A stretch of 64,000 nt of DNA, taken from IMG/VR virus record IMGVR_UViG_3300022562_001969, positions 22,115 to 86,114 of that record. One strand, given 5' to 3'. Position numbers and translations under genes: made by a program. The first letter of the stretch is position 1. Every line of letters starts with the position of its first letter. This DNA comes from a virus. Positions 1,780 through 58,488 of the stretch are shown piece after piece. The notes under the pieces are model-generated. The model searched no databases and had not been told where the DNA came from. It saw nothing but the letters and a program-made list of their open reading frames with translations.

Positions 1780-1922
1780 GCGGCGTAGGCCGGGGCCGGC
1801 GCTCGCAAGGGAATGACGCCCGGCCGCTCGGCCGCGCCAGGCGCTAACCCCAACCAGACCAGGAGGCCCAACAAGCCCAGCAGCCCCCATTTGATATATG
1901 ACAAAATATGGCTATAATTCAT
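1746..1922 (-). CDS. 58-aa single-TM peptide (type I toxin-like); not in ORF track
   Basis: GAGGAG RBS; MNYSHILSYIKWGLLGLLGLLVWLGLAPGAAERPGVIPLRAPAPAYAAFKGRLSRMRD*; stop codon lies inside the solitary repeat. Confidence 0.65.
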   Translation of the reverse strand: MNYSHILSYIKWGLLGLLGLLVWLGLAPGAAERPGVIPLRAPAPAYAAFKGRLSRMRD

Positions 1923-2009
1923 CTTAGTCTTTACTCCTCTCTTTATACGTCAGGAGTTTGGATAATGAGTGAAGCCCCCCGCCTATCAGTAAAGCGGGGG
2001 ACTTTTTTT
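1891..2009 (+). ncRNA. Putative cis-antisense RNA (with promoter) over the RBS of the 1746-1922 peptide
   Basis: TTGATA-16-TATAAT (1891-1918), anti-SD TTTACTCCTCTC, terminator CCCCCGC...GCGGGGGACTTTTTTT. Confidence 0.6.
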
Positions 2010-2032
2010 ATGATCTGATTGGTAACCCCCTA

Positions 2033-2317
2033 TTAAGGATTTCTGTATATATCGTGATGCCCAATTTTTCTGAAAACAAAGGTAATTTCGCCAGTTTCGT
2101 CGTCTTCTTCCCGGTGAAATGTAAAGACATACCCAAGTGTTATATGGCCTTCCCAGATATCAGAATGTCCCTTCATTGGCTTAATCCGTAATGAGGGATG
2201 ATAAGGATGGAAAGGCTGTTCTTTGAATAACTTAAAGCTTTTTTTTGCTTGGTCTCGAATGTCAGTCGGCAATTGCTCAAAACACTTGCGAAAATGCCGG
2301 GTTACACGATATTTCAT
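2033..2317 (-). CDS. RelE/ParE-superfamily toxin
   Basis: 94 aa, TRHFRKCFEQLP...HPSLRIKPMKG...IWEGHI...IGHHDIY. Confidence 0.85.
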   Translation of the reverse strand: MKYRVTRHFRKCFEQLPTDIRDQAKKSFKLFKEQPFHPYHPSLRIKPMKGHSDIWEGHITLGYVFTFHREEDDETGEITFVFRKIGHHDIYRNP

Positions 2318-2327
2318 TATTGATAGG

Positions 2328-2651
2328 TTATAATGTCTCCAGGAAACCATCGAGCGAGTCAAAATCTTCGTACTGTCCGGTTTGTAAGTCGCGTTCAACT
2401 TCGCGTTCCCCGGCTTGCCATTCCGGTGTCCAGAACCAGGCCTGGGTTTGATCGGTTTCAACCGTTATCAAGCTGGAGGATGTATATATATTGGCGATCA
2501 ATTGGCCGGTCATTACATTATTTCGCACATCAAATATATAAAAACAGGCCGGCGGTTGTCCCCATTCTTCTTCGCCAGGATGACTATGAATAAAAATAGC
2601 GGCTGATCCTTCTTCACTTGAAGCCAGCGTTTTGGTGTTACTTTCAATCAT
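2328..2651 (-). CDS. Putative antitoxin with N-terminal extension
   Basis: C-terminal QAWFWTPEWQAGEREVERDLQTGQYEDFDSLDGFL resembles antitoxins paired with this toxin group; lies directly upstream of the toxin. Confidence 0.75.
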   Translation of the reverse strand: MIESNTKTLASSEEGSAAIFIHSHPGEEEWGQPPACFYIFDVRNNVMTGQLIANIYTSSSLITVETDQTQAWFWTPEWQAGEREVERDLQTGQYEDFDSLDGFLETL

Positions 2652-3327
2652 GGTTGTTCCCCTGTATAAATGTTTTGACTTGATTTTCAATAAACCTGTC
2701 AACCTCGGTGATCCGGTCTGTTGGCTTAAATTCCCCTGTTTGTACCCACTTAAAAATAGCCTCGATAAAGAATTGTTTTGTATTCCCTAGATATGACTCT
2801 ATTTTGATCTCTATTTGCGGCGAACCATCATCAGTGTGGGGCATAACAAATCTAAGCCCCCCCCCCAGAATTGGCCTGCCAAATATGGATAATGACGCTT
2901 CAGGCTGTCTTAAGCGAGTGACCCATAATTCTTGAAATGCATGGTCACCTGAAGCTTGATAAAGATAACGAATAGATGCGTCACAAGATAAAATCTGACG
3001 CGATCCTGTCCAGGTAGACCGGAAAGCTTGAATAACCATATCGACGATTCTGGAAAATTCATCCGGTATATAGGTCGGATTAGGGTTAGCGATTATGAGT
3101 AACTGGCCGATAGGAGCATCAATATTGGCCCCAATTTTTATTTGAAGCGGCGGCGTCTTTTTGAGAATCAGTATCCCATTATCAGCTGTTAGCTCACCTC
3201 TATCATAATCAACGCCAGCGTTCAATATCGCTTGTTGAAAGGCGATCAATCGTTGTTTATTTATTTCAGGTGGGGGGGATAAAACATAATTAATTCCTAA
3301 ATGTAACAAAACCCCTTCATCATGCAT
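2644..3327 (-). CDS. Hypothetical protein, TIGR04255-like
   Basis: 227-aa alpha/beta protein, AT-rich; its end overlaps the antitoxin start; family call by recollection only. Confidence 0.5.
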   Translation of the reverse strand: MHDEGVLLHLGINYVLSPPPEINKQRLIAFQQAILNAGVDYDRGELTADNGILILKKTPPLQIKIGANIDAPIGQLLIIANPNPTYIPDEFSRIVDMVIQAFRSTWTGSRQILSCDASIRYLYQASGDHAFQELWVTRLRQPEASLSIFGRPILGGGLRFVMPHTDDGSPQIEIKIESYLGNTKQFFIEAIFKWVQTGEFKPTDRITEVDRFIENQVKTFIQGNNHD

Positions 3328-3363
3328 TCCTTAAACCCCTTTCTGTAAAAGTTTTGAAGATGA

Positions 3364-3984
3364 GTTTCAATCTCTCATTCGAGATAATCGGCCTTTGAAC
3401 CTGACGCAAAAAGCGGCGCAAAAAATGGCGCAGATTGAGTTTCAATCTCTCATTCGAGATAATCGGCCTTTGAACAGCATCTAACCACATCTAGCAATAG
3501 GCAAAAAAGAGGTTTCAATCTCTCATTCGAGATAATCGGCCTTTGAACATAAAAATAGTATACCATAAATTTGCCGAGTGTGCAGTTTCAATCTCTCATT
3601 CGAGATAATCGGCCTTTGAACTGATGTTAAGATTGTGGGGACGGTGGCCAGCTTGTTGTTTCAATCTCTCATTCGAGATAATCGGCCTTTGAACCAGATA
3701 ATGGCCAAGGTTGCCAAGTATTACGGTGTGTTTCAATCTCTCATTCGAGATAATCGGCCTTTGAACAGGACAAATGAGCGGAATTGTAGAGGTTGTAAAC
3801 GGGTTTCAATCTCTCATTCGAGATAATCGGCCTTTGAACAGTGACGATCCACTAGCAGGCGCAACTTTTTAAGGAGTTTCAATCTCTCATTCGAGATAAT
3901 CGGCCTTTGAACGCGGGCGCAATTGGATGAGGCCATCAATGAGGCGGGTTTCAATCTCTCATTCGAGATAATCGGCCTTTGAAC
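3364..3984 (-). CRISPR. CRISPR array 1: 9 identical 37-nt repeats, 8 spacers (35-38 nt); subtype uncertain (I-D/I-B/III-like)
   Basis: Repeats start at 3364, 3439, 3512, 3585, 3658, 3730, 3803, 3876, 3948; the minus-strand repeat ends ATTGAAAC; no leader and no cas genes. Confidence 0.97.
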
Positions 3985-4019
3985 AGCGGTCGTCCATCGT
4001 CTATCGTCGCCGGTCGTCG

Positions 4020-4472
4020 TCAGTTCCGCAGGCGCTTAATCCGGTCCATCTTGCGGGTCATGAGGCCGCTCAAGCGATAAATGGCCTTAACCACGATAGC
4101 CTGACGGCTGAGGCCGAGCAGCAGGCCGTCGTGATAGCTGGAAAGGTCGCCGATGTGGGAGGCGATGGCCGGGCTGTGGAAGCCGGGCCGGGGGTAGTCG
4201 TGGGCGAAGCGGTTGCGGATGTGGTTAATGATCGTCAGGTCGTCAAAGTCGGCCTGGTCTATCAGGCCGGTGCAGAGGGCCAGCCGGCGGCGGGTGACCG
4301 CCCGTTCCAGGAGGGCCGTTTTCTGGGTTTTGCTGCCCAGGAGGGCCACGTCCAGGAGTCGGTAGAGGACCTGGTCCAGGTGGGCCGCGCCGCGAATGGC
4401 GATCTCGGAATCGATGACGGTCTTGATTTGGGGATTGGTTTGGGGCTGTGCTAAAATAGATACAGCTTGCAT
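4020..4472 (-). CDS. MtlR-like / HEPN-family protein (copy 1)
   Basis: IRNRFAH (RxxxxH) motif and DSEIAIRGAAHLDQ; start at ATG 4472 after AAGGAG; paralog at 58464. Confidence 0.8.
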   Translation of the reverse strand: MQAVSILAQPQTNPQIKTVIDSEIAIRGAAHLDQVLYRLLDVALLGSKTQKTALLERAVTRRRLALCTGLIDQADFDDLTIINHIRNRFAHDYPRPGFHSPAIASHIGDLSSYHDGLLLGLSRQAIVVKAIYRLSGLMTRKMDRIKRLRN

Positions 4473-4545
4473 GGTAAGTTCACTCCTTACTGTGCTTGTT
4501 AGAGTTCCGTCGGTGGTATCAACACCGGCGGAATTCGTCATTTAA
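4449..4545 (+). ncRNA. Putative cis-antisense RNA over the start of HEPN copy 1
   Basis: Extended -10 TGcTAAAAT 4449-4457; hairpin TTCCGTCGGTG...CACCGGCGGAA 4505-4533. Confidence 0.55.
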
Positions 4546-4554
4546 TTGACCTTC

Positions 4555-4583
4555 ATTATAAATCTGTTTGGGGAAAAGGTCAA
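4555..4583 (-). promoter_or_regulatory. Sigma-70 promoter for HEPN gene and array 1
   Basis: TTGACC-17-TATAAT. Confidence 0.8.
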
Positions 4584-4595
4584 AAAGCGGGGGGG

Positions 4596-4613
4596 ATGTT
4601 CGCACGCGAACAT
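4596..4613. promoter_or_regulatory. Palindrome TGTTCGCnnGCGAACA, copy 1 of 6 (others 7723-7738, 9316-9335, 39130-39145, 48431-48454, 58321-58340)
   Basis: Directly visible; four copies lie next to sigma-70 promoters. Confidence 0.7.
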
Positions 4614-4615
4614 TC

Positions 4616-4687
4616 GACGATAGACGTTGATAATTGACAATTGACAATTGACAATTGACAATGGTCGTCCATCGTCCATCGTCGTCT
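4616..4687. repeat. Heptamer tracts: GACGAT(G/A) inverted pair around (TTGACAA)n
   Basis: Example of the dispersed heptamer families described in findings. Confidence 0.85.
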
Positions 4688-4740: not shown

Positions 4741-4911
4741 ATGACGACAGAACGCGAACCGGAAAAAATGAAACCGTATCCTGTAAATTTTCCGCCCAGC
4801 CTATGGCTGGCTGCCCGCCGTAAAGCGGGGGTGCGTTCGCTGGCCGGGATTATCCGGCGGCTGATAATAATGTGGTTAAGGGAGGAGGTTGTTCTGATGG
4901 ATGATGAATAG
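4741..4911 (+). CDS. Small ribbon-helix-helix (CopG/Arc-like) regulator
   Basis: 56 aa, PYPVNFPPSLWLAARRKAG-SLAGIIRRLI beta-alpha-alpha pattern. Confidence 0.65.
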   Translation: MTTEREPEKMKPYPVNFPPSLWLAARRKAGVRSLAGIIRRLIIMWLREEVVLMDDE

Positions 4912-4954
4912 ATAATAGATAATTGTCAATTGTCAATTATCAATTGTCAATTAT

Positions 4955-5061
4955 AAACAGAGGGCCATCCGGGTGCAACCGGTGGCCCCGCTTACATACT
5001 ATATCAGGGGCACAGCATGCAAGGTACTTTTTATTTTACCAACGATAAAAAAAATAGACAA
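4955..5061 (-). ncRNA. Putative cis-antisense RNA over the start of ORF 5017-5205
   Basis: TTGTCT-17-TAAAAT (5061-5033); terminator GGGCCACCGG...CCGGATGGCCCTCTGTTT. Confidence 0.55.
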
Positions 5062-5205
5062 ATGCCGCCGCCCCCTTTCAATTTTTTGTTAGTTTTCCCC
5101 ACAGGCGTGGGGGTGAACCGGGAGGAGCTATGGCAAAGCGTAGGGTTAAGTGCCCGCAGTGCGGGTATAGACACATCATCAACATTCCCAGTCGGAAAGC
5201 GATGA
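5017..5205 (+). CDS. Small leader ORF reading through a solitary CRISPR repeat
   Basis: 62 aa; has the antisense architecture; overlaps the next gene. Confidence 0.35.
   Translation: MQGTFYFTNDKKNRQMPPPPFNFLLVFPTGVGVNREELWQSVGLSARSAGIDTSSTFPVGKR
5092..5120 (+). CRISPR. Solitary type I-E repeat abutting an RBS
   Basis: GTTTTCCCCACAGGCGTGGGGGTGAACCG immediately followed by GGAGGAGCTATG. Confidence 0.92.
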
Positions 5206-5882
5206 CGGTGGGCGTGCGAGCCAAACGGATCACGGCCAACCAGTTTGAATACACCCTAAACGGTCCCGCCGAAATCTCGGATGACGCCAGATTTAGCACG
5301 GTGGCTGACGACCTGGTCCTGTCCGGCGCGTTTGGCGGCGCGTTGGGAGCCGTGGCGGGGGGCGCGGTGGCTGTCTTCGCGCCGGAGTACGCCCTGCACG
5401 GGGCCGGCGTGGGCATGAGCGCCGGGGTAGCCCTGGCCTGGGGCTGGTTGTGCGCGGAACATAACCAACGGCTGAAACGGGTGTTGCCCTGGTTCGTTGA
5501 GCAGCGGCAAAACTGGAAACGGCCCGAGCTGGGGGACGATGGCGAGATCAGGCTGACGGTAGATCATCTCCATCGGGACAGCTACAGCGAGCAAGGCCGC
5601 TCCATCGCCCTCCTGGGGACCCTACCGGTCGATGTGGAGCGCTTCCGGGCCTGGGCGCAAGGGGCCATCCGGGGCGATAGCCTGGCCATCAAACACTGGA
5701 CGGGAGCCGAACGGCCTTTCAGCCGGGATGAGTATGATCGCCTGCTGCTCAAAATGAGGGCGGCCAATATAGTGACCAATCTGCCGGGGAAGGGCAATAC
5801 CCTGACCAATCCCGGCAAGCACGCTCTGAAACGTATCCTGGCCGAGACCCCCTCCCCTACCCCGGCTGAGGAGCGTGCGTGA
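5130..5882 (+). CDS. Hypothetical membrane protein (Zn knuckle, 2 TM, C-terminal wHTH-like)
   Basis: CPQC motif, Gly/Ala-rich TM hairpin, GKGNTLTNPGK tail; strong RBS. Confidence 0.7.
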   Translation: MAKRRVKCPQCGYRHIINIPSRKAMTVGVRAKRITANQFEYTLNGPAEISDDARFSTVADDLVLSGAFGGALGAVAGGAVAVFAPEYALHGAGVGMSAGVALAWGWLCAEHNQRLKRVLPWFVEQRQNWKRPELGDDGEIRLTVDHLHRDSYSEQGRSIALLGTLPVDVERFRAWAQGAIRGDSLAIKHWTGAERPFSRDEYDRLLLKMRAANIVTNLPGKGNTLTNPGKHALKRILAETPSPTPAEERA

Positions 5883-7547: not shown

Positions 7548-8011
7548 CCCCACCAGGCGCAGCCGGTCATCGAGCGGCAGATTATCATGGTGGTGGGGCC
7601 GGGTCAGTCGCGGGGGGAGATGTGGCGGCAGTTAAGCGCGAGCTATGACGATAGACGACGGTAGACGATAGACGATAGACGGCCGGTGACCGTTTAGCTA
7701 TCGTCCATCGTCCATCGTCGAATGTTCGCGTGCGAACACTTACCTTAGATCTACTCTTCGCCGGTGGCGTAACCCAGTATCTGACCTATCGGCCGCCCGG
7801 TGACAATCTCCAGCAAAGTGTCAGTGTCATCCGGACCAACCTCATCAAATCGCCTCGCCAAATGCGATACAACCTGAAATACGGCTTCCTGGACGGCCAG
7901 GGCCTCGGCCGGGTCTATCTGGTCGGCCGGAGTGTTACCAGCACTCGGGCGGCCTGCCAATCAAATCCTTACCAGGTGGACGCGGATGAGGGGAGTTTTA
8001 TGGTTAGTGAG

Positions 8012-9225: not shown

Positions 9226-9435
9226 TATGGTCCTCCAAACTGGACTGTATTTTGTTCTGTTTATAACTATACTATAGCCGATCATTATCTGGCAAAAACG
9301 ATAAATCTTTCGTCGAATGTTCGCACGCGAACATTGACGATGGACGATTGACGACCGCTGTCTTTTAGTTGTGGCTGGTTTGGTGTCGGGTGGCTCTTTG
9401 GCAGTTTGGACGATGGACGATGGACGACCGCCGGT

Positions 9436-11085: not shown

Positions 11086-11461
11086 TGGTTGACCACCTGA
11101 CCAGGCCAGGCTATAACAAATGGCAAGTGAACGGTTCACCATCATGCCCGTGGAGAATACCCTGATTTTATCCGAGTTTGGGATGACAGGCAAAAAAGAC
11201 GGTCGTCCATCGTCCATCGCCCATCGTCGGTTACTTGTTTTCAGGCCAAAAGGGTATATAATTGATTTAGCGACATTTTGGCTTGATAGTCTGATCAAGA
11301 TATAATAGTAAAAGAAGCTCCAACCTCTGACAGGCTATCTGTCCAAAGTGTCGCAACTTGAGAGGTCTGGGGCTTCTTTTTGGTGCTTCAGGATTTTCCG
11401 TGGGAACCACTATATCGCCATACAAGAAAAGTAAGCCAACTTTCAAAGATAGGTTCGCAAG

Positions 11462-13513
11462 ATGACTGAAAGCCGCCAACCTGGTAGGAATTTTAGGGAT
11501 GAATTACTTAAGATTTTGTCAGGGATGACCGCTTTGGATGACCCTGACAACCGATATCGGCTATTGGACAAGTTGCCACTAGAGGCAGTAGCAACCATAC
11601 GACGCAATTCTGCTAAGGGGACCGACCTATACAATATCGTTCAGGCTGCCGAAGGATGGGGACAATTGACCTCTGGAGAGTGGGCCTTGGTCGTTATCGC
11701 CCAAAACGCCCTATCTCTAGTTAAAGGAACCCACCCCGGTCGTCAGCTAGAGGCTCTTTTAGCTGAAAGGGTTATTCATCAGGCCAAGCCAGGCCGGCAG
11801 ATCCCCCTTGATCTGCCAGCGCGAGAGGAGAATTTTATAGACCGTAAGGACGAACTGGTATCTCTACTCACCGAATTACAACCAGGACGAGTAGTCACTT
11901 TGACTGGGCCGGGGGGCATGGGCAAGACTGCCCTGGCCGCGGAAGCCGTTGGCCAACTGGTGGTTGATCATAAGCCCCCTGAGCGTTTCCCGGATGGCAT
12001 CTTCTTTCATAGCTTTTACAACCAACCCCAAGCCGGTTTAGCCCTGGAAAGTCTGGCCCTGGCCTTTGGCGAGGAAGCCAGGCCAACGGCCCAGGTAGCG
12101 GCACAACGGGCGTTGAGCGGCCGGCAGGCCTTATTGGTGTTGGATGGCGCTGAAGATGCGGATGACTTGGCGGCCGTGTTAGCGGTGCGCGGGGGGTGTG
12201 GGGTTTTAATAACCAGCCGTAATCGGGGCGATGCGCCGGCCGTGTTGCAAGACCTGGCGCCCCTCAAACAGCAAGACGCCCTGGACTTATTACAACGCTG
12301 GGCTGAAGCGCAGCTTGATGACCAGGCGGCGGCCATTGCCATCTGCGAACTGGTGGGGAGGCTGCCGCTGGCGGTGCGTCTGGTAGGGCGGTATCTGCGT
12401 GAGACCGGGGAGACGGCCAGCGAGTATCTAGCCTGGTTACAAGAAACCCCGTTAGAGGCCCTGAACCAGGGGCGGCGACGCGAAGAAAGTATACCTGTCT
12501 TACTTGAGCGCAGTCTAAAGCAGGTCAGTGAGGCGGCGCGGCAAGTGTTGGCGGTGGCCGGCCGGCTGGCGCTGGCCCCGCTGCAACAAGAGGTGATGGG
12601 GGCCGCTTTGGCAGCCGAAGCGCGTGAGGTGAGACAGTGGTTAGGAGAATTGGTGCGCTATGGCTTGCTGAGCCGGGACAAAGGGCGTTATGCCATCAGT
12701 CACGCCCTCATTCACACCTACGCCAGTGAGCGGCTCAATGTGGCGGAGGAGATGGTCGAGCGGTTGGTGGCTTTCTATGTCGCTTTGGCTGAACACTTTA
12801 GCCAGCAAGGATTGGCAGGCTACCAGGCGCTTGATGGGGAGCGGCCTCACCTGCTGCGCTTGATTGCAGGCTGCGCGAAAGGAGATGATTGGCTGGGGGT
12901 TCGCAAGCTGGTCTGGGCCATTGATGGTTATTTGTCAATTCAGGGTCACGCCAGCGAACGACAAACTGCCCTAGCGACAGGGCTAACAGCCGCCCAACAA
13001 CTGGGCGACCGCCAAGATGAAGGGGCATTTTTAGGCAGCCTGGGGACCGCCTACTACGACCAGGGGGAGCTGGACAAAGCCATCGCCCATTCTCAGCAAG
13101 CCCTGGTCATCCACCGCGAGATTGGCTACCGCCAGGGGGAGGCTGCTGTTTTAGGCTACCTGGGAACCGCCTACAGCATCCAGGGGGAGCTGGCCAAAGG
13201 CATCGACCATTATCAGCAAGCCCTGGTCATCCACCGCGAGATTGGCTACCGCCAGGGGGAGGCTTATAATTTAGGCATCCTGGGTCTCGCCTACCGCGCC
13301 CAGGGGGAGAGGGCCAAAGCCAGAGAATACTTAGCCCAGGCGCTCACTATTTTTGAGGCGATCAAATCGCCCCAGGCAGACGCAATTCGTGAACAGTTGA
13401 CTATGCTGACTATGTTAGGCCGCCTCCATATACTCTTAGCAATGTGTCAGGCCATCTACGAGAAAGGATTGATGAGGCAGCTTTTGCCGCTTTTCAAAAG
13501 GCTTATTCACTAA
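11462..13513 (+). CDS. EAD-like domain + STAND (NB-ARC) NTPase + TPR protein
   Basis: GPGGMGKT Walker A, LLVLDG Walker B, GRLPLA motif, TPR repeats (HREIGYRQGEA); N-terminal helical EAD8-like segment. Confidence 0.88.
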   Translation: MTESRQPGRNFRDELLKILSGMTALDDPDNRYRLLDKLPLEAVATIRRNSAKGTDLYNIVQAAEGWGQLTSGEWALVVIAQNALSLVKGTHPGRQLEALLAERVIHQAKPGRQIPLDLPAREENFIDRKDELVSLLTELQPGRVVTLTGPGGMGKTALAAEAVGQLVVDHKPPERFPDGIFFHSFYNQPQAGLALESLALAFGEEARPTAQVAAQRALSGRQALLVLDGAEDADDLAAVLAVRGGCGVLITSRNRGDAPAVLQDLAPLKQQDALDLLQRWAEAQLDDQAAAIAICELVGRLPLAVRLVGRYLRETGETASEYLAWLQETPLEALNQGRRREESIPVLLERSLKQVSEAARQVLAVAGRLALAPLQQEVMGAALAAEAREVRQWLGELVRYGLLSRDKGRYAISHALIHTYASERLNVAEEMVERLVAFYVALAEHFSQQGLAGYQALDGERPHLLRLIAGCAKGDDWLGVRKLVWAIDGYLSIQGHASERQTALATGLTAAQQLGDRQDEGAFLGSLGTAYYDQGELDKAIAHSQQALVIHREIGYRQGEAAVLGYLGTAYSIQGELAKGIDHYQQALVIHREIGYRQGEAYNLGILGLAYRAQGERAKAREYLAQALTIFEAIKSPQADAIREQLTMLTMLGRLHILLAMCQAIYEKGLMRQLLPLFKRLIH

Positions 13514-13800: not shown

Positions 13801-13852
13801 GGTTGATTTTTAGCTTTGGACGATGGACGACCGGCGGCGACTTAAGACTGCG

Positions 13853-13981
13853 GCCGCCCATCGTCCATCGTCCATCGTCGCCAAGGCGAAGCGACCACCG
13901 ACGACACAACACCGCCGCCCATCGTCCATCGTCCATCGTCGCCAAGGCGAAGCGACCACCGACGACACAACACCGCCGCCC
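13853..13981. repeat. 61-bp tandem repeat (about 2.1 copies) built on TCGTCCA heptamers
   Basis: Period 61 visible; inverted relative of the 15900-16120 units. Confidence 0.9.
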
Positions 13982-13993
13982 GCCGTCCATCGT

Positions 13994-14957: not shown

Positions 14958-15038
14958 CTTCGGAGTCAAAACCTTTAGGTTTTTCTTCGGAGTCGAAACC
15001 TTTAGGTTTTTCTTCGGAGTCAAAACCTTTAGGTTTTT
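14958..15038. repeat. Three tandem 27-bp repeats upstream of the integrase
   Basis: CTTCGGAGTC(A/G)AAACCTTTAGGTTTTT at 14958, 14985 and 15012. Confidence 0.95.
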
Positions 15039-15079
15039 CAAGCCTGAAGGCTTGGACTCCTCTATTCCGGAGTCGAAAC

Positions 15080-15108
15080 CGGTTCACCCCCACGTCTGTG
15101 GGGAATAC
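15080..15108 (-). CRISPR. Solitary type I-E repeat upstream of the integrase
   Basis: GTATTCCCCACAGACGTGGGGGTGAACCG on the minus strand. Confidence 0.92.
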
Positions 15109-15179
15109 GGGCTCCGGTTAATGCCCAAACCTAAAGGCTTGGACTCCTTTGAGCCTTTGAGCCTTTGAGCCTAAAATAA

Positions 15180-15212
15180 AAACCTGACCGGTTTTTGAAA
15201 CCAGTCAGGTTT
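15180..15212. repeat. REP-like hairpin or terminator
   Basis: AAACCTGAC-CGGTTTTTGAAACCA-GTCAGGTTT; (CCTTTGAG)3 adjacent at 15146-15172. Confidence 0.55.
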
Positions 15213-15221: not shown

Positions 15222-15614
15222 CTACGCCGCCGTGCGTTGCTGGTATTCCACCAGCATCTCGACCGGATCGCGGCCGGCCACGCGGCCCAGGGCCTCTTCC
15301 CAGTCGCCGCTGTGGAGGATGGCGTTGAGGGATTCGACGGCCTGCACCAGGGCCACCTCAAGGTCCAGCAGGGCGACGATGTCCACCGCCCCACTCGCCT
15401 CTCTGGTAGGGTTGGCGGCGAAGTCAGTCAGGGCCGCAATGGCCTCGACCAGTCTCGCCAGCCCGGGCAACTCAGCGCCGGGGGCTACTTCTGCTTCCGG
15501 CGCCAGCTCGCCCAACGCCAGGCTGGCCGCCAGCAGACCGGTTGCCGCCAGAAATCCGCGACGGTCTATTTGGTTGTTGGTTTGGGGGTGTGCTAAAATA
15601 CGTTCAGTTCTCAT
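15222..15614 (-). CDS. Hypothetical protein with twin-arginine-like signal
   Basis: DRRGFLAATGLLAASLAL; GAGGAG RBS; N-terminus ILAHPQTNNQI resembles HEPN copy 1 ILAQPQTNPQI. Confidence 0.7.
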   Translation of the reverse strand: MRTERILAHPQTNNQIDRRGFLAATGLLAASLALGELAPEAEVAPGAELPGLARLVEAIAALTDFAANPTREASGAVDIVALLDLEVALVQAVESLNAILHSGDWEEALGRVAGRDPVEMLVEYQQRTAA

Positions 15615-15675
15615 GGTAAGCTCCTCTTACTGTGTGAATTAGGGCCGGTTTGATGTTTCAGCATCAGGCCGGCTC
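15591..15675 (+). ncRNA. Putative cis-antisense RNA over the start of 15222-15614
   Basis: TGcTAAAAT 15591-15599; hairpin GCCGGTTTGATG...CATCAGGCCGGC. Confidence 0.55.
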
Positions 15676-15799
15676 GTTCGTTTAAAGTTGACCACATTAT
15701 ATGCCCAAACTCAGCATTAGTCAAATCCGGCTCAGGATTTATTTTTTTACGACGCTTGCGGCTGGCCGCCGGGCGACGTATACTAATAGTAGCTCTCAT
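15611..15799 (-). CDS. Small basic protein
   Basis: AAGGAG RBS, ATGA overlap with the next gene. Confidence 0.5.
   Translation of the reverse strand: MRATISIRRPAASRKRRKKINPEPDLTNAEFGHIMWSTLNERAGLMLKHQTGPNSHSKRSLP
15696..15724 (-). promoter_or_regulatory. Sigma-70 promoter
   Basis: TTGACT-17-TATAAT. Confidence 0.8.
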
Positions 15800-15868
15800 G
15801 GTATCTCCTTACTGTGAGAGTATGGTTTCGCCTCGTTTTTTAGCCCGCGAGGCGAAGCCTGTTTTTTT
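15756..15868 (+). ncRNA. Putative cis-antisense RNA over the start of 15611-15799
   Basis: TTGCGG-17-TATACT; terminator GGTTTCGCCTCG...CGAGGCGAAGCCTGTTTTTTT. Confidence 0.6.
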
Positions 15869-16160
15869 GGACGATAGACGATGGACGATGGACGGCGGGC
15901 GGCGGTTTGACGGGCGGCGGTCGTCCATCGTCGGTCGTCGCTTCGCCTTGACGACGATAGACGATGGACGGCGGTTTGACGGTCGTCGGTCGTCCATCGT
16001 CGGTCGTCACTTTGCCTTGGCGACGCTAGACGATAGACGATAGACCGCGGTTTGACGGTCGTCTATCGTCCATCGTCGGTCGTCACTTCGCCTTGGCGAC
16101 GCTAGACGATAGACGATGGATGGCTGTATGGCATCGTCGGTCGTCGGTCGTCGGTCGTCG
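15869..16160. repeat. About three imperfect ~70-bp units built on GACGAT(G/A)/TCGTCCA heptamers
   Basis: CGGTTTGACGG...CTTCGCCTTG(G)CGACG repeated. Confidence 0.85.
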
Positions 16161-16263
16161 TTCCGCCAGGCGTCAACTTGTTTGGATAGCATACCTCTAC
16201 GTAGGTCTCCCGTTAGGTTTCCGTTTTGCCGGTTTGGTAAAACGGCCTTGCTGGGGGGGGATT

Positions 16264-16293
16264 ATCGTATCATAGGTGGGGGGGATCTGTCAA
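16264..16293 (-). promoter_or_regulatory. Leftward promoter of the integrase-side operon
   Basis: TTGACA-18-TACGAT with extended TG; C7 run in the spacer. Confidence 0.65.
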
Positions 16294-16927: not shown

Positions 16928-17010
16928 CGGTTCACCCCCACGCCTGTGGGGAATACTCGTCCATCGTCCATCGTCGCGAAGCGGTTCACCCCCCCGCCTG
17001 TGGGGAATAC
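16928..17010 (-). CRISPR. Type I-E mini-array: 2 repeats, one 25-nt spacer
   Basis: GTATTCCCCACAGGCG(T/G)GGGGGTGAACCG at 16928-16956 and 16982-17010. Confidence 0.95.
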
Positions 17011-17197
17011 GCTCCAAAACGTTATAAAGTTTTAATGTTACAACCGTTCGCTAGCTTAGAACACGGATATGGGGAGGGTAACGGATTTTCGACCTGGCTA
17101 TAAGTAATCCGTTACCTTCTGCCAATCCGCTGTTCTCAAGCTAACCGTGCAATAGCAGCAACGCCCAAACGGTCGTCCATCGTCCATCGTCAGCCGT

Positions 17198-26950: not shown

Positions 26951-26960
26951 TTAAACAGCG

Positions 26961-48380: not shown

Positions 48381-48471
48381 GGCTATTCTCGTATTTATTT
48401 AGGCGGGTGGGTCGGTTCACCACCCTGAGCCGGATGTTCGCGCGCGAACATCCGATCTATATTATGATAAA

Positions 48472-53866: not shown

Positions 53867-55198
53867 TTAATCATAAGCCTCATAGCGCAAACACCAGGCC
53901 AAATAACGGGCCTCATCCGGGCCGTGGTCAAATTGTTTCAGGGGGGTTTCGTTGGGGCCGTAGCTGTAGGCGCTCATCTCGGCCCGGAAATGGCGGCAGC
54001 GGGGATGGACCCGCAATCGCCGCCAACCGTTTTTGTCTGGCGCGATCCAACTGCGTAAATTTTTGATCCCCTCGTCCACCGCATGCGTCGCTTTGCGGCT
54101 GGCAATGCCGGCCCCCTGCAAGCGGCCCCGCAGTTGGGCGGCGCTGCTGTCAATGGCGGCGAATTCAGGCAGGGGATAGCCCAGGTCTACCACTTCATCA
54201 ATTTGCGCTTCTTCCAGCATCTTGACCGCGTAATGTTCGTCGAAGCGGCAGAGTTGGCCGTCCGGCCGCAATTGGTAGAGGCCAAAGACACGCGGGTGGG
54301 CGTCGGCGGCGTAGGTGTTGGTGGTCGGGTCAATACCATTACTGAAGCGCGATCCGGCGCTATAGCCATCGTCCACCCCCCAATAAACCGGCCCCCCACC
54401 GGCTATATAGTCGGCCGCCTCGGTCACGTTCCCCTCCGCGTCGCCATCCAGCCAGACTTCATAGATTAGTCCCTCCGCTTTGACCCACAGCCCCACGGCC
54501 AGCCGTTGCCTATCGACGCCGGTCAGCATTGCCAGTGTGTCCAGATAGTCGGCCGGATTGTATTTGTTATCGGCCGCCCCGGAATAGTAGACGTTGGCCT
54601 CGCCGTTCAGGATCAGCCGGGTATTGATCCAGTGCAGGGGGCTGTCCGGGTTGCAGGCCAGGATGATCTGCCGCCAATCGGCCGCCCGGCCGCGCATCCT
54701 GGCCAGGACGGCGTTAAAGTCGGCCTCGGTGAATTCGGTCGCCTCTTCCATAAAGGCGATATCGACCCCCCCCCGCCGGCCAATCGAGCGTAGCCGTTGC
54801 AGATGTTTGCTATTTTCCAGGCCGATATAGGCCACAATGGAGCCGTTGCCATATTCAAAGCGCGATTTGCTGGGGAAATGCCGCGCCCCGGTTAGAAAGC
54901 TCTGGGTCTGGTCCAGGGCTACCTCGTCCTCGAAAAAGAGGCTGGTGCCACTGGTCATTGAGTCTTTGACTTTTCTGATGAGCAAAGCAAAAGCGCCCGG
55001 ATATTTCAGACAATAGCCGTTGATTTTTTCCATGGCCAGATGGGATTTGCCGCCGCCGGCGCTGCCGGTCAGCAGCAGCAGCGGGCTTTTATCTCGCCAG
55101 GGGGCGACCTGCCAGGGTAATGGCTCAAACACCTTGATCGGTTTGGGGCGCCCGCTGACGACCCCGTTAAGAATTGTCTGTGTCGTCGTCCCAATCAT
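53867..55198 (-). CDS. terL: Terminase large subunit (PBSX-like)
   Basis: GSAGGGKS, FMEEATE, ACNP, DHGPDEARY. Confidence 0.95.
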   Translation of the reverse strand: MIGTTTQTILNGVVSGRPKPIKVFEPLPWQVAPWRDKSPLLLLTGSAGGGKSHLAMEKINGYCLKYPGAFALLIRKVKDSMTSGTSLFFEDEVALDQTQSFLTGARHFPSKSRFEYGNGSIVAYIGLENSKHLQRLRSIGRRGGVDIAFMEEATEFTEADFNAVLARMRGRAADWRQIILACNPDSPLHWINTRLILNGEANVYYSGAADNKYNPADYLDTLAMLTGVDRQRLAVGLWVKAEGLIYEVWLDGDAEGNVTEAADYIAGGGPVYWGVDDGYSAGSRFSNGIDPTTNTYAADAHPRVFGLYQLRPDGQLCRFDEHYAVKMLEEAQIDEVVDLGYPLPEFAAIDSSAAQLRGRLQGAGIASRKATHAVDEGIKNLRSWIAPDKNGWRRLRVHPRCRHFRAEMSAYSYGPNETPLKQFDHGPDEARYLAWCLRYEAYD

Positions 55199-57009: not shown

Positions 57010-57081
57010 TCAACCGTCCTCGTTTTGACAATTGACAATTGACAATTGACAATTAACAATTGACAATTGATCTCCAATCTC

Positions 57082-57294
57082 TCATTGATGACACCCCATC
57101 ACCCCTACCGGCGCATTAAGAATTTTGACCAACTCCTCGCCTTCGACCCGGTAAACCGCCCCGTTGACGATCCCCACCTTCACCTGACCATAGCTGGTCG
57201 ATACCCAGACCTCATCGGTGATAAATAGCTTGTCCGGGATGTCACTCAGCTTTAGGTGATGTTGGCCGGTGTTGTTTTTAATCTCGATTTTCAT
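57082..57294 (-). CDS. Hypothetical protein flanked by TTGACAA tracts
   Basis: 70-aa ORF. Confidence 0.5.
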   Translation of the reverse strand: MKIEIKNNTGQHHLKLSDIPDKLFITDEVWVSTSYGQVKVGIVNGAVYRVEGEELVKILNAPVGVMGCHQ

Positions 57295-57378
57295 CTTTCG
57301 TCATCAACTCGGATTGATAATTGATAATTAACAATTGACAATTGACAATTATTAACAATTGACAATTGACAGATGTGG

Positions 57379-57618
57379 TCAAACATCGTCGTCCTCATCC
57401 CGCTTCTGGCCGTGCCCGTTCCCATTCCGGCCCAGCCAATTGAATAAATGCAGCGTCCACAATAACATCTTTTTCCAGACGGTCACATTGCTCCGATCCA
57501 GCCAACCGGCAAAGTGGTCAACCCAAATGTGCAGCCGGGACATAATATGAATGTCCGCCCCCACTATCGGTTTAATAATCATCCGTTTTATCGGTCGCCA
57601 TAGTTTTTTCAGCATCAC
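57379..57618 (-). CDS. Hypothetical protein
   Basis: 79-aa ORF. Confidence 0.45.
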   Translation of the reverse strand: MMLKKLWRPIKRMIIKPIVGADIHIMSRLHIWVDHFAGWLDRSNVTVWKKMLLWTLHLFNWLGRNGNGHGQKRDEDDDV

Positions 57619-58144
57619 GCCCCCCGCTGGAGTTATTGGCCCTGATCTCCTTCAGGATAAAGGCCTGTATTTCCTTAACCTGGTGGATTACCTCTTTTAA
57701 CGCCGCCATCCGCTCAATGATCATATCGAGCTTGGTGCTAACGATCTCGCGAGCAAACGTGTTGGCGTCTTTTAGCTGTGTCTGCGTCTCGGCGGTCATC
57801 ATGGTTAATTGCTCCTCGGTGAAAGAGAGCGAGCTTAACTGACTCAACTGCTTCAGTTTAGTCAGGTTCATCTCCTCCATGCGGACGGCCTGATCGTGTT
57901 CCTGTTGGTCTTCCTTCAATTTGGCGTGATTTTTGAACGTGTCTTTAATGGTCTGGGGGATGATTGAAGCCAACTGAGATTGAAATAACTTGGCCAGGAT
58001 GACGGCCAGTAGCGAGTACTCCGGCCAATTTTCCTGCACGCGCGTCAAAATCTCGTCGATGGTATCCTCCGCCGTTGCGTCGGGGGCGGCGCTTGCCAGG
58101 ATCGCCCCCAACGCAACAAAAAAGCGCTTACAACCGGGGATCAA
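57572..58144 (-). CDS. Membrane-anchored coiled-coil protein (start uncertain)
   Basis: YSLLAVILAKLF hydrophobic segment followed by coils. Confidence 0.55.
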   Translation of the reverse strand: MIPGCKRFFVALGAILASAAPDATAEDTIDEILTRVQENWPEYSLLAVILAKLFQSQLASIIPQTIKDTFKNHAKLKEDQQEHDQAVRMEEMNLTKLKQLSQLSSLSFTEEQLTMMTAETQTQLKDANTFAREIVSTKLDMIIERMAALKEVIHQVKEIQAFILKEIRANNSSGGRDAEKTMATDKTDDY

Positions 58145-58207
58145 TCCGGTTTTGGCAAGCGCTTTTATTATTATTTGGATTATAGCACAGAAGTTCTACT
58201 AATTCAA
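58118..58207 (-). promoter_or_regulatory. Late-operon promoter followed by a terminator
   Basis: TTGAAT-17-TATAAT with TG (58207-58179); hairpin AAAAGCGCTTG...TAAGCGCTTTTTT (58166-58118). Confidence 0.7.
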
Positions 58208-58351
58208 TAGGCTGGCTGATTTATCGGATAGACCGGCTGATTTCGACGATAGACGATAGACGATGGACGACCATTGACAATTGTCAATTATCAATTATCA
58301 ATTATCAACGTCTATCGTCCAATGTTCGCGCGCGAACATTCCCCCCACTTC

Positions 58352-58380
58352 TTGACCTTTTCCCCAAACCGATTTATAAT
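58352..58380 (+). promoter_or_regulatory. Promoter of HEPN copy 2
   Basis: TTGACC-17-TATAAT, nearly identical to 4555-4583. Confidence 0.8.
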
Positions 58381-58391
58381 GGAGGCCAACT

Positions 58392-58488
58392 AAAAAGCGT
58401 CGAGGCCTGGCAGTGTCGCAAGCACCACCAGACCTCTAACAAGCACAGTAAGGGAGACTTACCATGCAAGCTGACCATAATTGTAACA
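58392..58488 (-). ncRNA. Putative cis-antisense RNA over the start of HEPN copy 2
   Basis: TGtTACAAT 58488-58480; hairpin GAGGTCTGGTGGTG...CACTGCCAGGCCTC followed by GACGCTTTTT. Confidence 0.55.

What the first reader, a model, noticed from the sequence alone, without database searches (positions are those of the whole stretch)
1891..58488. Six antisense-gated gene cassettes, four of which run into CRISPR repeats
Seen: ORFs starting at 1922(-), 4472(-), 5017(+), 15614(-), 15799(-) and 58464(+) each contain a reverse-strand promoter in their first codons (TATAAT, TGcTAAAAT, TAAAAT, TGcTAAAAT, TATACT, TGtTACAAT). Each would make a 70-90 nt RNA across the RBS, ending in a hairpin. Four share CACAGTAAG(N)GGAG...ACCATG. 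Directly downstream of four cassettes lie CRISPR repeats (1743, array 1, 5092, 15080). Established: SymE/SymR and P22 sar-type antisense control; solitary repeat units can act as RNA anti-CRISPRs (Racrs). Inference: a modular cassette, silent in the lysogen and expressed on entry into a naive cell, that delivers proteins together with crRNA-like RNAs.
Basis: partly seen in the sequence, partly recalled or inferred. Interest (0 to 1): 0.75.

Follow-up and report, generated by a model that had tools for sequence, protein, structure and literature searches.

The report
Antisense-RNA-gated gene starts in a phage
A temperate tailed phage from marine sediment carries six copies of a small module in which a gene's ribosome-binding site faces a predicted ~80-nt antisense RNA; three copies sit upstream of borrowed CRISPR repeats, so the phage may time both proteins and CRISPR-like RNAs with one RNA switch.

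Summary
A -10 box alone is chance level: 18 of 124 gene starts and 10% of random 40-nt windows have one. The full architecture is not chance.

On the strand antisense to the gene each has:
- TTGnnn, 17-18 nt, then a -10 box (TGn-extended in 5 of 6) ending 12-13 nt before the start codon;
- a stem-loop across the start codon and Shine-Dalgarno;
- a terminator hairpin with a U-rich tail ending at the sense promoter.

These RNAs fold 11-18 kcal/mol better on the antisense strand. They contain 32 G·U pairs against 2 on the sense strand, and rank 1, 3, 4, 5, 6 and 9 of 127 gene starts.

Site 1922 is not a family member. Cargo genes are two HEPN/MtlR-like paralogs, two Tat-signal paralogs and a small ORF.

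The CRISPR link is real by position only: 3 of 6 units, one of them behind a terminator. The lysogen/entry timing is untested because no RNA data exist. This is a new variant of cis-antisense control.

The parts
4428..4457 (+). Predicted antisense promoter of unit 4472: TTGGGG, 18 nt, TGc-TAAAAT
   Evidence: The -10 ends 12 nt before CAT (4470-4472).
4464..4550 (+). Predicted antisense RNA as4472 (~87 nt): SL1 4464-4500 across the start codon and SD, SL2 terminator 4502-4536, U-rich tail
   Evidence: -42.0 kcal/mol against -27.0 on the sense strand; 5 G·U pairs against 0. CM hit of 92.5 bits.
4555..4583 (-). Sense promoter TTGACC-17-TATAAT of the HEPN gene and array 1
   Evidence: 11/12 match.
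4597..4612 (.). 16-bp palindrome TGTTCGCGTGCGAACA just upstream of the -35 box; candidate operator
   Evidence: 9 copies in the genome.
4020..4472 (-). Cargo: HEPN/MtlR-like protein of 150 aa with an RNRFAH motif
3364..3984 (-). CRISPR array 1: nine identical 37-nt repeats and 8 spacers. It starts 35 nt after the HEPN stop codon and has no leader of its own
58352..58380 (+). Sense promoter TTGACC-17-TATAAT of the second HEPN paralog; the palindrome lies at 58323-58338
58392..58473 (-). Predicted antisense RNA as58464 (~82 nt): SL1 58438-58472, SL2 58402-58436, U5 tail
   Evidence: -39.0 against -26.0 kcal/mol; 6 G·U pairs against 1. CM hit of 95.5 bits.
58480..58508 (-). Predicted antisense promoter TTGGTC-17-TGt-TACAAT
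   Evidence: The DNA is homologous to unit 4472 although the reading frame is shifted by a 1-nt indel.
58464..58943 (+). Cargo: HEPN/MtlR-like paralog of 159 aa, 50% identical to 4020-4472
15696..15724 (-). Sense promoter TTGACT-17-TATAAT of unit 15614
   Evidence: 11/12 match.
15570..15599 (+). Predicted antisense promoter TTGGTT-18-TGc-TAAAAT
15606..15687 (+). Predicted antisense RNA as15614 (~82 nt): SL1 15606-15640, SL2 15642-15675
   Evidence: -38.0 against -20.2 kcal/mol; 7 G·U pairs against 0. CM hit of 83.6 bits.
15222..15614 (-). Cargo: 130-aa protein with a Tat-type signal; its paralog lies at genome 8672-9048(-)
   Evidence: Differences by codon position are 34/23/50, which supports this reading frame.
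15180..15212 (-). Intrinsic terminator between the cargo gene and the I-E repeat
   Evidence: 15-bp stem, T-rich tail.
15080..15108 (-). Solitary I-E-like CRISPR repeat
   Evidence: 1 mismatch to the 29-nt reference copy.
15756..15784 (+). Predicted antisense promoter TTGCGG-17-TATACT (no TG extension)
15791..15869 (+). Predicted antisense RNA as15799 (~79 nt): SL1 15792-15821, SL2 15824-15859, U7 tail
   Evidence: -39.6 against -26.2 kcal/mol; 5 G·U pairs against 0. CM hit of 71.4 bits.
15611..15799 (-). 62-aa basic ORF behind the same translation-initiation region. It overlaps the promoter of unit 15614, and whether it codes is uncertain
4930..4957 (+). Sense promoter-like TTGTCA-16-TATAAA of the degenerate unit 5017
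   Evidence: read from the sequence.
4951..5026 (-). Predicted antisense RNA as5017: SL1 4991-5023 (13 bp, 4 G·U, different sequence from the other units), SL2 4961-4989
   Evidence: -34.1 against -22.4 kcal/mol. The CM scores only 8.6 bits.
5033..5061 (-). Predicted antisense promoter TTGTCT-17-TGg-TAAAAT
5092..5120 (+). Solitary I-E-like repeat in the 5' UTR, followed directly by GGAGGAGCT-ATG of gene 5130-5882
1891..2009 (+). Separate, non-family candidate sRNA: promoter TTGATA-16-TATAAT (1891-1918), about 85 nt across the RBS of ORF 1922, ending at a hairpin (1972-2004) with a T7 run
   Evidence: The hairpin folds better on the - strand (-22.3 against -14.9), so it also serves as the terminator of the upstream - strand operon.
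1746..1922 (-). 58-aa hydrophobic ORF whose stop codon lies inside the solitary 37-nt repeat (1743-1779)
   Evidence: It is an orphan.

Best explanation
The window is part of an 86-kb temperate tailed phage whose host is probably a Chloroflexota bacterium. The phage carries a six-member family of 5' control modules.

Each module has two convergent promoters about 110 bp apart:
- A sense promoter, near-consensus in four units, makes an mRNA with a ~70-nt leader. The Shine-Dalgarno and AUG lie in a weak hairpin.
- An extended -10 promoter inside codons 5-7 makes a ~76-87-nt antisense RNA that is co-extensive with that leader.

The antisense RNA has two domains. SL1 has the anti-Shine-Dalgarno in or beside its loop and the anti-AUG in its stem. 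SL2 is an intrinsic terminator that stops transcription just before the sense -10 box.

The inferred mechanism has three elements:
- Pairing of the antisense RNA with the leader blocks translation initiation.
- Pairing probably also triggers decay of the mRNA.
- The convergent promoters add transcriptional interference.

Four units share the same SL1 sequence, so their antisense RNAs could also act on each other's mRNAs in trans and form a small regulon.

The cargo is two HEPN/MtlR-like proteins (possible RNase toxins), two Tat-signal proteins and a small basic ORF. Because array 1 has no leader of its own, the HEPN unit 4472 probably also drives its transcription. The degenerate unit 5017 lies upstream of a solitary I-E repeat and gene 5130.

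Shown: the sequence features, their fixed geometry, strand-specific RNA structure, and modular reuse. Inferred: that the RNAs are made, that they repress, and when.
For: Strand-specific structure:
- The whole units fold better on the antisense strand than on the sense strand: -38.7/-28.0, -42.0/-27.0, -34.1/-22.4, -38.0/-20.2, -39.6/-26.2 and -39.0/-26.0 kcal/mol.
- They hold 32 G·U among 164 pairs on the antisense strand and 2 among 127 on the sense strand. The sense-strand mismatches I checked by hand in the SL1 and SL2 stems are all C·A, that is G·U on the other strand.
- In a genome-wide control with the same geometry the six rank 1, 3, 4, 5, 6 and 9 of 127 gene starts.

Structure is kept while sequence changes:
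- SL2 stems differ in sequence between units but keep 13-15 bp and a T-rich tail.
- SL1 covaries in the copy at genome 9048 (CAGTAC/GTACTG) and in unit 5017.

Promoters:
- Every unit has TTGnnn, 17-18 nt, then a -10 box ending 12-13 nt before CAT. Five of six carry the TGn extension.
- The box survives different codings (ILA, ILT, SI, YF). In 58464 it survives a 1-nt frameshift relative to 4472, so the conservation is at the DNA level.
- The sense promoters are near-consensus.

Family definition:
- A covariance model of four units finds a fifth at genome 9038-9122 (E 2e-9) and nothing else in the genome at E below 0.01.

Cargo genes are real:
- The HEPN paralogs have 1751 relatives, with R and H of Rx4H invariant among the 36 aligned. 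The model has pLDDT 95 and its top fold hits are MtlR/YggD.
- The Tat-signal paralogs show an excess of third-codon-position changes.
Against: - There is no expression evidence of any kind. No run on record as RNA was listed for this DNA.
- The promoters are consensus matches judged by E. coli-type rules, in a phage that encodes its own sigma factor and infects an uncultured host.
- A -10 box alone is at chance frequency.
- 4472/58464 and 15614/g9048 are paralogous pairs. The number of independent observations is therefore about four, not six.
- SL1 is invariant in four units and shows no covariation among them.
- No relative outside this genome keeps the antisense arrangement. There were no model hits in five contigs with related terminases. 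At HEPN homologues elsewhere, antisense -10 boxes occur at background rate, 8/72.
- The two best model hits in Anaerolineae genomes are stand-alone RNAs that do not overlap a start codon.
Confidence: 0.6

Rival explanations
1. The hairpins are insulating terminators without a dedicated small RNA. They stop antisense read-through from elsewhere before it reaches the strong sense promoters (for example, from the convergent - strand operon right of 58943). The -10 boxes in the first codons would then be incidental.
For: - The hairpins are clearly antisense-strand terminators.
- At 58464 a - strand operon does converge on the gene.
- -10-like hexamers are common.
Against: - For 4472, 15614 and 15799 there is no + strand gene for 1.5 kb or more upstream that could feed such read-through.
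- SL1 is not needed for termination, yet it is also selected on the antisense strand and spans exactly the SD and AUG.
- The -35 TTG, TGn and -10 elements sit at a fixed distance in all six units, across different codings and a frameshift.
Confidence: 0.15
2. The conserved block is a sense-strand 5' UTR element: an mRNA stabiliser, a protein-binding site or a translational operator. It spread by duplication together with its promoter, and the antisense features are by-products.
For: - Homology runs from the -35 box to about codon 14 in three units.
- The sense RNA can still form weaker hairpins with the SD in a loop.
- A palindromic operator-like site sits upstream of two units.
Against: - The mismatches I checked in the sense-strand stems are all C·A, and the sense RNA is 11-18 kcal/mol less stable. 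Selection on the sense RNA would give the opposite pattern.
- The U-rich tails follow the hairpins only on the antisense strand.
Confidence: 0.12
3. The units are type I toxin-antitoxin pairs in the strict sense. The cargo proteins are toxic (the HEPN RNases; at 1922 the 58-aa membrane peptide), and the antisense RNAs are labile antitoxins that stabilise the prophage or cause abortive infection.
For: - The Rx4H motif is kept in both HEPN paralogs, with R and H invariant among the 36 relatives aligned.
- There is a weak fold match to the prophage HEPN nuclease HepS.
- 1922 has the classic layout: a small hydrophobic ORF, a full antisense promoter and a terminator.
- Neighbouring genes include a STAND NTPase and a tyrosine integrase.
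Against: - The same module also heads Tat-signal proteins and a degenerate copy with no ORF. That does not fit a toxin-specific device.
- Characterised MtlR-type HEPN proteins are regulators and are not known to be toxins.
- There is no match in PADLOC.
- Toxicity was not tested.
Confidence: 0.25

Closest known systems
SymE/SymR of E. coli and other cis-antisense RNAs that overlap the 5' end (IS10 RNA-IN/RNA-OUT)
   Same: The antisense promoter lies inside the first codons. A ~70-85-nt RNA covers the SD and AUG. The stem-loop presents sequence complementary to the translation-initiation region. The two promoters face each other. (From my own knowledge of these systems; the geometry here comes.)
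   Different: - There are six homologous copies in one genome, fused to unrelated cargo genes.
- Four copies share an identical SL1, which may allow cross-talk.
- A dedicated terminator abuts the sense -10 box.
- There is no sequence similarity to any Rfam family.
- Expression has not been shown.
P22 sar RNA controlling ant; lambda OOP RNA
   Same: A temperate-phage antisense RNA that limits expression of an accessory or early gene from a strong promoter.
   Different: - The promoter sits in the target's own coding start rather than in an intercistronic region.
- The module is repeated.
- One unit probably also drives a CRISPR array.
RNA anti-CRISPRs (Racr; solitary repeat units, PMC10651486) and viral crRNA-like RNAs (bioRxiv 10.1101/2024.10.29.618823)
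   Same: - The phage has no cas genes in the ORFs I scanned, yet carries solitary repeats and mini-arrays.
- The I-E-like repeat is identical to repeats in Chloroflexota arrays.
- A promoter lies within 250 bp upstream of the 5092 unit.
   Different: - Here the repeats lie inside protein-coding transcription units: in a 5' UTR, after a gene, or inside an ORF's 3' end.
- Array 1 has eight normal-length spacers and looks like a working array, not a decoy.
- No host with the 37-nt or I-C-like repeat was found.
- Inhibition of CRISPR-Cas was not tested.
MtlR/YggD-type HEPN proteins (PF05068)
   Same: An all-helical fold whose top structural hits are 6kcr, 3c8g and 3brj. The profile matches 6kcr at E 4e-7. 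R and H of the Rx4H motif are invariant among the 36 relatives aligned.
   Different: - The phage protein itself scores below Pfam's cut-off (17.1 against 25.2 bits).
- It is phage-borne.
- It occupies the leader position of a CRISPR array. None of 80 homologous loci share that arrangement.

Membership tests
cis-encoded antisense RNA over a translation-initiation region (SymR / RNA-OUT / sar type) | Promoter on the opposite strand within or just after the target's start codon | tested here: met
   TTGnnn, 17-18 nt, then (TGn)TAnAnT ending 12-13 nt before CAT in all six family units. This is a consensus match only.
cis-encoded antisense RNA over a translation-initiation region (SymR / RNA-OUT / sar type) | The RNA is structured, with a stem-loop complementary to the SD/AUG, and ends at an intrinsic terminator | tested here: met
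   SL1 plus SL2 plus a U-rich tail. The antisense strand is favoured by 11-18 kcal/mol, with 32 G·U pairs against 2.
cis-encoded antisense RNA over a translation-initiation region (SymR / RNA-OUT / sar type) | The antisense transcript is actually made and represses the target | not testable with these tools
   No run on record as RNA was listed for this DNA. Only DNA contigs could be laid on it.
Type I toxin-antitoxin system | The protein is toxic when expressed without the RNA | not tested
   Only indirect hints: the Rx4H motif, a hydrophobic 58-aa ORF at 1922, and no PADLOC match.
Racr (RNA anti-CRISPR, solitary repeat unit) | Solitary repeat resembling the host's CRISPR repeat in sequence and hairpin, on an element without cas genes | tested here: met
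   - The I-E-like units at 5092 and 15080 differ by 1 nt from the reference copy, and the core is identical to arrays in Anaerolineae, Phototrophicaceae, Promineifilaceae and Caldilineaceae MAGs.
- No cas family appeared among the 37 largest and nearby ORFs scanned against Pfam or PHROGs.
- For the 37-nt unit at 1743 no host repeat was found.
Racr (RNA anti-CRISPR, solitary repeat unit) | [quoted passage not shown] | tested here: inconclusive
   - 5092: a promoter-like site lies 135-160 nt upstream, but the repeat is in the 5' UTR of gene 5130.
- 15080: it is separated from P15724 by a terminator, and no good local promoter is present.
- 1743: it lies inside an ORF's 3' end.
Racr (RNA anti-CRISPR, solitary repeat unit) | Inhibits the cognate CRISPR-Cas system | not testable with these tools
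   This needs the host or a surrogate I-E system.
HEPN superfamily, MtlR-like (PF05068) | Rx4-6H motif in a four-helix HEPN core | tested here: met
   R86 and H91 are invariant in 36 relatives. The model has pLDDT 95. The top fold hits are MtlR/YggD with probability 1.0, though E is only 6.5e-3. The profile matches 6kcr at 4.4e-7.
HEPN superfamily, MtlR-like (PF05068) | Score above Pfam's gathering threshold | tested here: not met
   17.1 bits against a cut-off of 25.2 for 4020-4472, and no hit for 58464-58943. 21 of 36 relatives match at E up to 0.01.
Any described RNA family (Rfam 15) | Match at the gathering score or at E up to 1 | tested here: not met
   Only one tRNA and one weak unrelated hit in the whole window.

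The most novel reading that the evidence does not exclude
A phage uses one shared antisense-RNA regulon as a timing switch for counter-defence and inter-virus weapons.
- The strong sense promoters drive HEPN nucleases, a leaderless CRISPR array that borrows host Cas proteins, and a solitary I-E repeat. They would fire only before the antisense pool builds up, that is on entry into a naive cell or after the repressing RNA is lost.
- Protein effectors and crRNA/Racr-like RNAs would then be released together.
- The I-C mini-array's 27-nt spacer matches the terminator of as15799 at 24/27. This would couple host Cascade to the same switch.
Probability: 0.15. Interest if true: 0.8.

Novelty: new variant of a known kind. 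Interest (0 to 1): 0.55.

Why it matters
Cis-antisense control of a ribosome-binding site is textbook. A multi-copy, modular antisense switch inside one phage is not.
- The switch is reused on HEPN proteins, exported proteins and transcription units that contain CRISPR arrays or solitary repeats.
- If the RNAs exist, they give a concrete and testable answer to how cas-less phage CRISPR arrays and Racr-type repeats are regulated.
- They would add an RNA family from Chloroflexota phages, a group with almost no experimental RNA biology.
- The strand-asymmetry test used here (G·U against C·A) is a general way to tell which strand of a conserved hairpin is under selection when no RNA data exist.

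Tried and rejected
Expression data:
- No RNA holder listed. The four runs listed are all DNA (two hold the stretch), and laying X1 and X2 gave only DNA contigs, which say nothing about transcripts.

Searches for the leader or module elsewhere:
- The leader pattern in IMG/VR gave 10 hits, all unrelated upstream sequence and therefore chance.
- The covariance model found nothing in five contigs with related terminases.
- It found nothing at E up to 0.1 in five Chloroflexota genomes that share the I-E repeat (best E 0.185).
- Rfam gave nothing at gathering or E-value thresholds.

Searches through the cargo proteins:
- The word-indexed search with the HEPN protein found only the protein itself.
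- No relative was found in IMG/VR.
- 80 metagenome loci with 30-45% identical homologues carry no CRISPR array, no CACAGTAAG and no palindrome. Antisense -10 boxes occur there at background rate, 8/72 against 3/72 at a control position inside the same genes.
- The Tat-signal protein and the 58-aa ORF are orphans.
- The fold of the Tat-signal protein was too poor to search (pLDDT 51).
- PADLOC matched none of the cassette cargo proteins; the only hit among the ten proteins scanned was a generic TPR model on the STAND NTPase.

Searches for the repeats and spacers:
- The 37-nt repeat was not found in GTDB genomes or IMG/VR.
- The 37-nt and I-C-like repeats are absent from five candidate host genomes.
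- Array 1 has no match among INPHARED phages.

Rejected along the way:
- My first reading was that the antisense boxes were only the reverse complement of shared codons. I dropped it after the folding asymmetry and the frameshifted homology in 58464.
- A 46-nt sliding-window fold with a -19 kcal/mol threshold was too permissive to be useful.
- MAFFT alignments of the six units misplace SL2 in two rows. I therefore report per-unit folds rather than a pair-count table.

Full report
CONTEXT
- The window is bases 22115-86114 of an 86,114-bp IMG/VR virus record with 144-bp direct terminal repeats.
- It is a tailed phage. It has a tape-measure protein (23543-26950), a tail fibre (17771-19453) and a large terminase (53867-55198).
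- It is probably temperate: it has tyrosine integrases at 13994-14935 and at genome 10531-11538.
- The DNA occurs in sediment metagenomes of two studies.
- The left 17 kb of the window is an accessory region. It holds a sigma factor, a DNA methyltransferase and an EAD8-NACHT/NB-ARC-TPR STAND NTPase.
- It also holds three kinds of CRISPR repeat, with no cas family among the 37 ORFs I scanned against Pfam or PHROGs.

THE CRISPR ELEMENTS
- A 37-nt repeat ending ATTGAAAC forms a nine-repeat array at 3364-3984 and a solitary copy at 1743-1779.
- A 33-nt I-C-like repeat forms six copies at 16382-16740.
- A 29-nt I-E-like repeat occurs at 5092-5120 (+), 15080-15108 (-), as a two-repeat mini-array at 16928-17010 (-), and as a degenerate copy at 11132-11160.
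- Orientation is inferred from the 3' handle motifs, using what is known of these repeat types.
- The I-E core is identical to repeats in arrays of Anaerolineae, Phototrophicaceae, Promineifilaceae and Caldilineaceae MAGs. This points to a Chloroflexota host.
- The 37-nt repeat was found in no GTDB species genome or IMG/VR contig. Neither it nor the I-C-like repeat occurs in five candidate host genomes.

CHECKING THE OBSERVATION
- All six reverse-strand hexamers are present. In five sites they end 12-13 nt from the start codon.
- CACAGTAAG occurs four times, always just before an ATG, against 0.08 expected.
- Each site has a hairpin.
- A -10-like hexamer on its own means little. 18 of 124 putative gene starts and 491 of 5000 random 40-nt windows have one.
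- At first I therefore read the boxes as the reverse complement of shared codons (ATT TTA GCA).

WHAT CHANGED THAT READING
- An alignment of the six leaders shows that 4472, 58464 and 15614 are homologous from the sense -35 box to about codon 14.
- 15799 shares the 3' part, 5017 is a degenerate copy, and 1922 is unrelated.
- Folding the leader hairpins on both strands gave a consistent asymmetry. The strand antisense to the gene is much more stable:
  - 4472: -25.3 against -15.4 kcal/mol
  - 58464: -24.7 against -16.5
  - 15614: -25.8 against -15.2
  - 15799: -23.0 against -17.3
- Checked by hand, the sense-strand mismatches in these stems are all C·A, which is a G·U pair on the other strand.
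- The stems differ completely in sequence between units, so these are largely independent observations.
- RNAalifold found a second antisense stem-loop, SL1, made from CAUGGUAAG and CUUACUGUG. Its two wobble pairs exist only on the antisense strand, and the anti-Shine-Dalgarno sits in or beside its loop.
- This explains why CACAGTAAG...CTTACCATG is conserved: it is an inverted repeat spanning the SD and AUG.

FAMILY AND GEOMETRY
- A covariance model built from four units recovers them and finds a fifth at genome 9038-9122, outside the window (E 2e-9).
- That copy heads a paralog of the Tat-signal protein of 15614. Its SL1 has covaried to CAGTAC/GTACTG.
- Unit 5017 scores poorly with the model, but its antisense strand has a 13-bp SL1 with four G·U pairs, plus SL2.
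- All six units share the following on the antisense strand:
  - TTGnnn, a 17-18-nt spacer, and TAAAAT, TACAAT or TATACT;
  - a TGn extension in five of six;
  - a 12-13-nt gap to CAT;
  - then SL1, SL2 and a U-rich tail.
- The box persists across different codings (ILA, ILT, SI, YF).
- In 58464 the homologous DNA is read in a frame shifted by a 1-nt indel relative to 4472 (MQADHNCN against MQAVSILA). Conservation is therefore at the nucleotide level.
- The predicted RNAs are 76-87 nt long. They end at the sense promoter's -10 box, so they are co-extensive with the sense 5' UTR.

STATISTICS
- Whole-unit folding energies, antisense against sense, are -38.7/-28.0, -42.0/-27.0, -34.1/-22.4, -38.0/-20.2, -39.6/-26.2 and -39.0/-26.0 kcal/mol.
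- G·U pairs number 32 of 164 on the antisense strand and 2 of 127 on the sense strand.
- Applying the same -76..+8 geometry to all 127 gene starts, the six rank 1, 3, 4, 5, 6 and 9. Non-family starts average +1.1 with sd 5.7 kcal/mol.
- About ten clean hairpins in 86 kb have a stem of at least 13 bp and a T-rich tail. Five of them are these SL2 elements.

CARGO
- 4020-4472 and 58464-58943 are 50% identical paralogs.
- An exhaustive profile search finds 1751 relatives. R86 and H91 (RNRFAH, an Rx4H motif) are invariant among the 36 aligned.
- 21 of 36 relatives hit Pfam MtlR. The profile matches the MtlR structure 6kcr at E 4e-7. A pLDDT-95 model has MtlR/YggD as its best fold hits, plus a weak match to the prophage nuclease HepS.
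- The phage protein itself is below Pfam's cut-off.
- 15222-15614 and its paralog carry a Tat-type signal. Their differences by codon position are 34/23/50, which confirms the reading frame.
- Both proteins are otherwise orphans.
- The 62-aa ORF at 15799 overlaps the promoter of 15614, so whether it codes is uncertain.
- 5017 has no Shine-Dalgarno and is best read as a remnant leader for the solitary repeat at 5092 and gene 5130.

THE LINK TO CRISPR REPEATS
- Array 1 begins 35 nt after the HEPN stop codon. Only heptamer repeats lie between them, and no promoter-like site is visible, so co-transcription from P4583 is the simplest reading.
- The 5092 repeat lies between the 5017 leader and GGAGGAGCT-ATG of gene 5130.
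- The 15080 repeat follows the 15614 gene, but behind a strong terminator (15180-15212).
- Units 58464, 15799 and genome 9048 have no repeat downstream.
- By my own count, three of six family units have a co-oriented repeat within about 120 nt downstream, against roughly one of the other ~118 genes. That is more than chance. However, the numbers are small, all cases lie in one accessory region, and 80 HEPN-homologue loci elsewhere have no array.
- The arrays look functional rather than decorative. Array 1 has eight 35-38-nt spacers.
- One I-C spacer matches the phage's own genome at 30/33, with three PAM-proximal mismatches and no TTC PAM. This is the pattern expected if it targets a related competitor.

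SITE 1922
- This site is a different thing.
- A full promoter on the + strand (TTGATA-16-TATAAT, 11/12 match) is followed after about 85 nt by a hairpin and a T7 run. The RNA would cross the RBS of a 58-aa hydrophobic orphan ORF whose stop codon lies inside the solitary 37-nt repeat.
- The hairpin folds better on the - strand, where it ends the upstream operon, so it is probably bidirectional.
- The layout resembles a type I toxin-antitoxin pair but is not homologous to the family.

BEYOND THIS GENOME
- No run on record as RNA is listed for this DNA, and no Rfam family matches.
- There are no model hits in five contigs with related terminases.
- In 151 genomes of the class containing the Anaerolineae MAG OZ241372.1, four weak hits appeared.
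- The two best hits have several features in common with the phage units:
  - they are two-hairpin RNAs with the same strand asymmetry (-51.8/-33.9 and -52.2/-36.4 kcal/mol);
  - they have a similar linker and SL2 core;
  - just upstream of the modelled region they have TTGCTA-17-TGg-TAAAAT and TTGCAC-18-TGa-TACAAT.
- These may be stand-alone relatives. They do not overlap a start codon, and only the best survives correction for 151 genomes.

VERDICT
- Its core inference, small antisense RNAs across the RBS, is supported by strand-specific structure rather than by the -10 boxes it relied on.
- The modular-cassette idea holds for the 5' unit.
- The CRISPR coupling is positional and partial.
- The lysogen/entry timing and any Racr activity are untested.
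- I rate it a new variant of cis-antisense control.
  - My confidence that the RNAs exist and repress is about 0.6.
  - That they gate CRISPR-derived RNAs as a programmed unit is about 0.15.

Noticed in passing
window 4597-4612, 7723-7738, 9318-9333, 39130-39145, 48435-48450, 58323-58338 (and genome 3763, 14289): The 16-bp palindrome TGTTCGC(G/A)(C/T)GCGAACA occurs nine times in the 86-kb genome. Several copies lie just upstream of promoter-like sites, including both HEPN promoters. It is a candidate operator for an unidentified regulator.
   Followed up: partly
window 3969-4022, 4627-4685, 4909-4967, 13847-14026, 15862-16173, 17173-17318, 57018-57382, 58244-58311, 59550-63509: Tandem heptamer tracts (GACGATG/GACGATA and TTGACAA/TTGATAA, period 7) fill many intergenic regions. 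They flank the palindromes and promoters, and the 25-nt spacer of the I-E mini-array is itself made of these heptamers.
   Followed up: no
window 16481-16507 against 15842-15868: The only short spacer (27 nt) of the I-C-like array matches, at 24/27 with a TTT 5' flank, the 3' half plus T-run of the terminator hairpin of as15799. This resembles a crRNA-like regulatory guide aimed at one of the cassettes. An earlier first-stage note reports the same match.
   Followed up: partly
window 16415-16447 against 60778-60810: A 33-nt I-C spacer matches the phage's own ParB-methyltransferase gene at 30/33. All three mismatches are at the PAM-proximal end, and the flank is ACC, not TTC. This fits a spacer aimed at a close relative, with the phage's own copy escaping.
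   Followed up: partly
window 11132-11160 (-): A degenerate I-E-like repeat (24/29) sits 4 nt after a promoter-like TTGCCT-17-TAAAAT. It lies in the 5' UTR of the DNA methyltransferase, whose real start is the ATG at 11085, not the TTG at 11298.
   Followed up: partly
loci L014-L056 (Anaerolineae MAG OZ241372.1): - This 6.1-Mb chromosome has, besides large I-E arrays, more than 20 solitary copies of the same 29-nt repeat scattered around the genome.
- 8 of 21 have an ORF of at least 100 aa starting within 70 nt downstream in the same sense. The mirror-image control gives 2.
- The phage's 5092 unit (repeat, then SD, then ATG) copies this arrangement.
- This hints at a Cas6e-linked role in mRNA 5' ends rather than only a decoy role.
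   Followed up: partly
L180:1501-1581(-), L181:1385-1467(-): Two Anaerolineae-class genomes carry stand-alone two-hairpin RNAs resembling the phage antisense RNAs. They share the strand asymmetry and have extended -10 promoters just upstream, but they do not overlap a start codon.
   Followed up: partly
window 14958-15039 and 15042-15160: Three tandem 27-nt repeats (CTTCGGAGTCAAAACCTTTAGGTTTTTC) lie upstream of the integrase start. Copies of AGGCTTGGACTCC lie on both sides of the solitary I-E repeat at 15080. The integrase start also shows a strong antisense folding bias (-32.3 against -20.6 kcal/mol).
   Followed up: no
window 11462-13513 (+): The phage encodes a STAND NTPase (EAD8, NB-ARC/NACHT and TPR domains). 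This is a defence-type protein inside the accessory region.
   Followed up: no
window 26942-27026: The start of the tape-measure gene (26950) has the second-largest antisense folding bias in the genome (-37.5 against -21.1 kcal/mol), but it is not a family member.
   Followed up: no
window 15877-16115: Three tandem copies of a 69-76-nt repeat, 81-83% identical, lie between promoter-like site 16264-16293 (-) and the 15799 unit.
   Followed up: no
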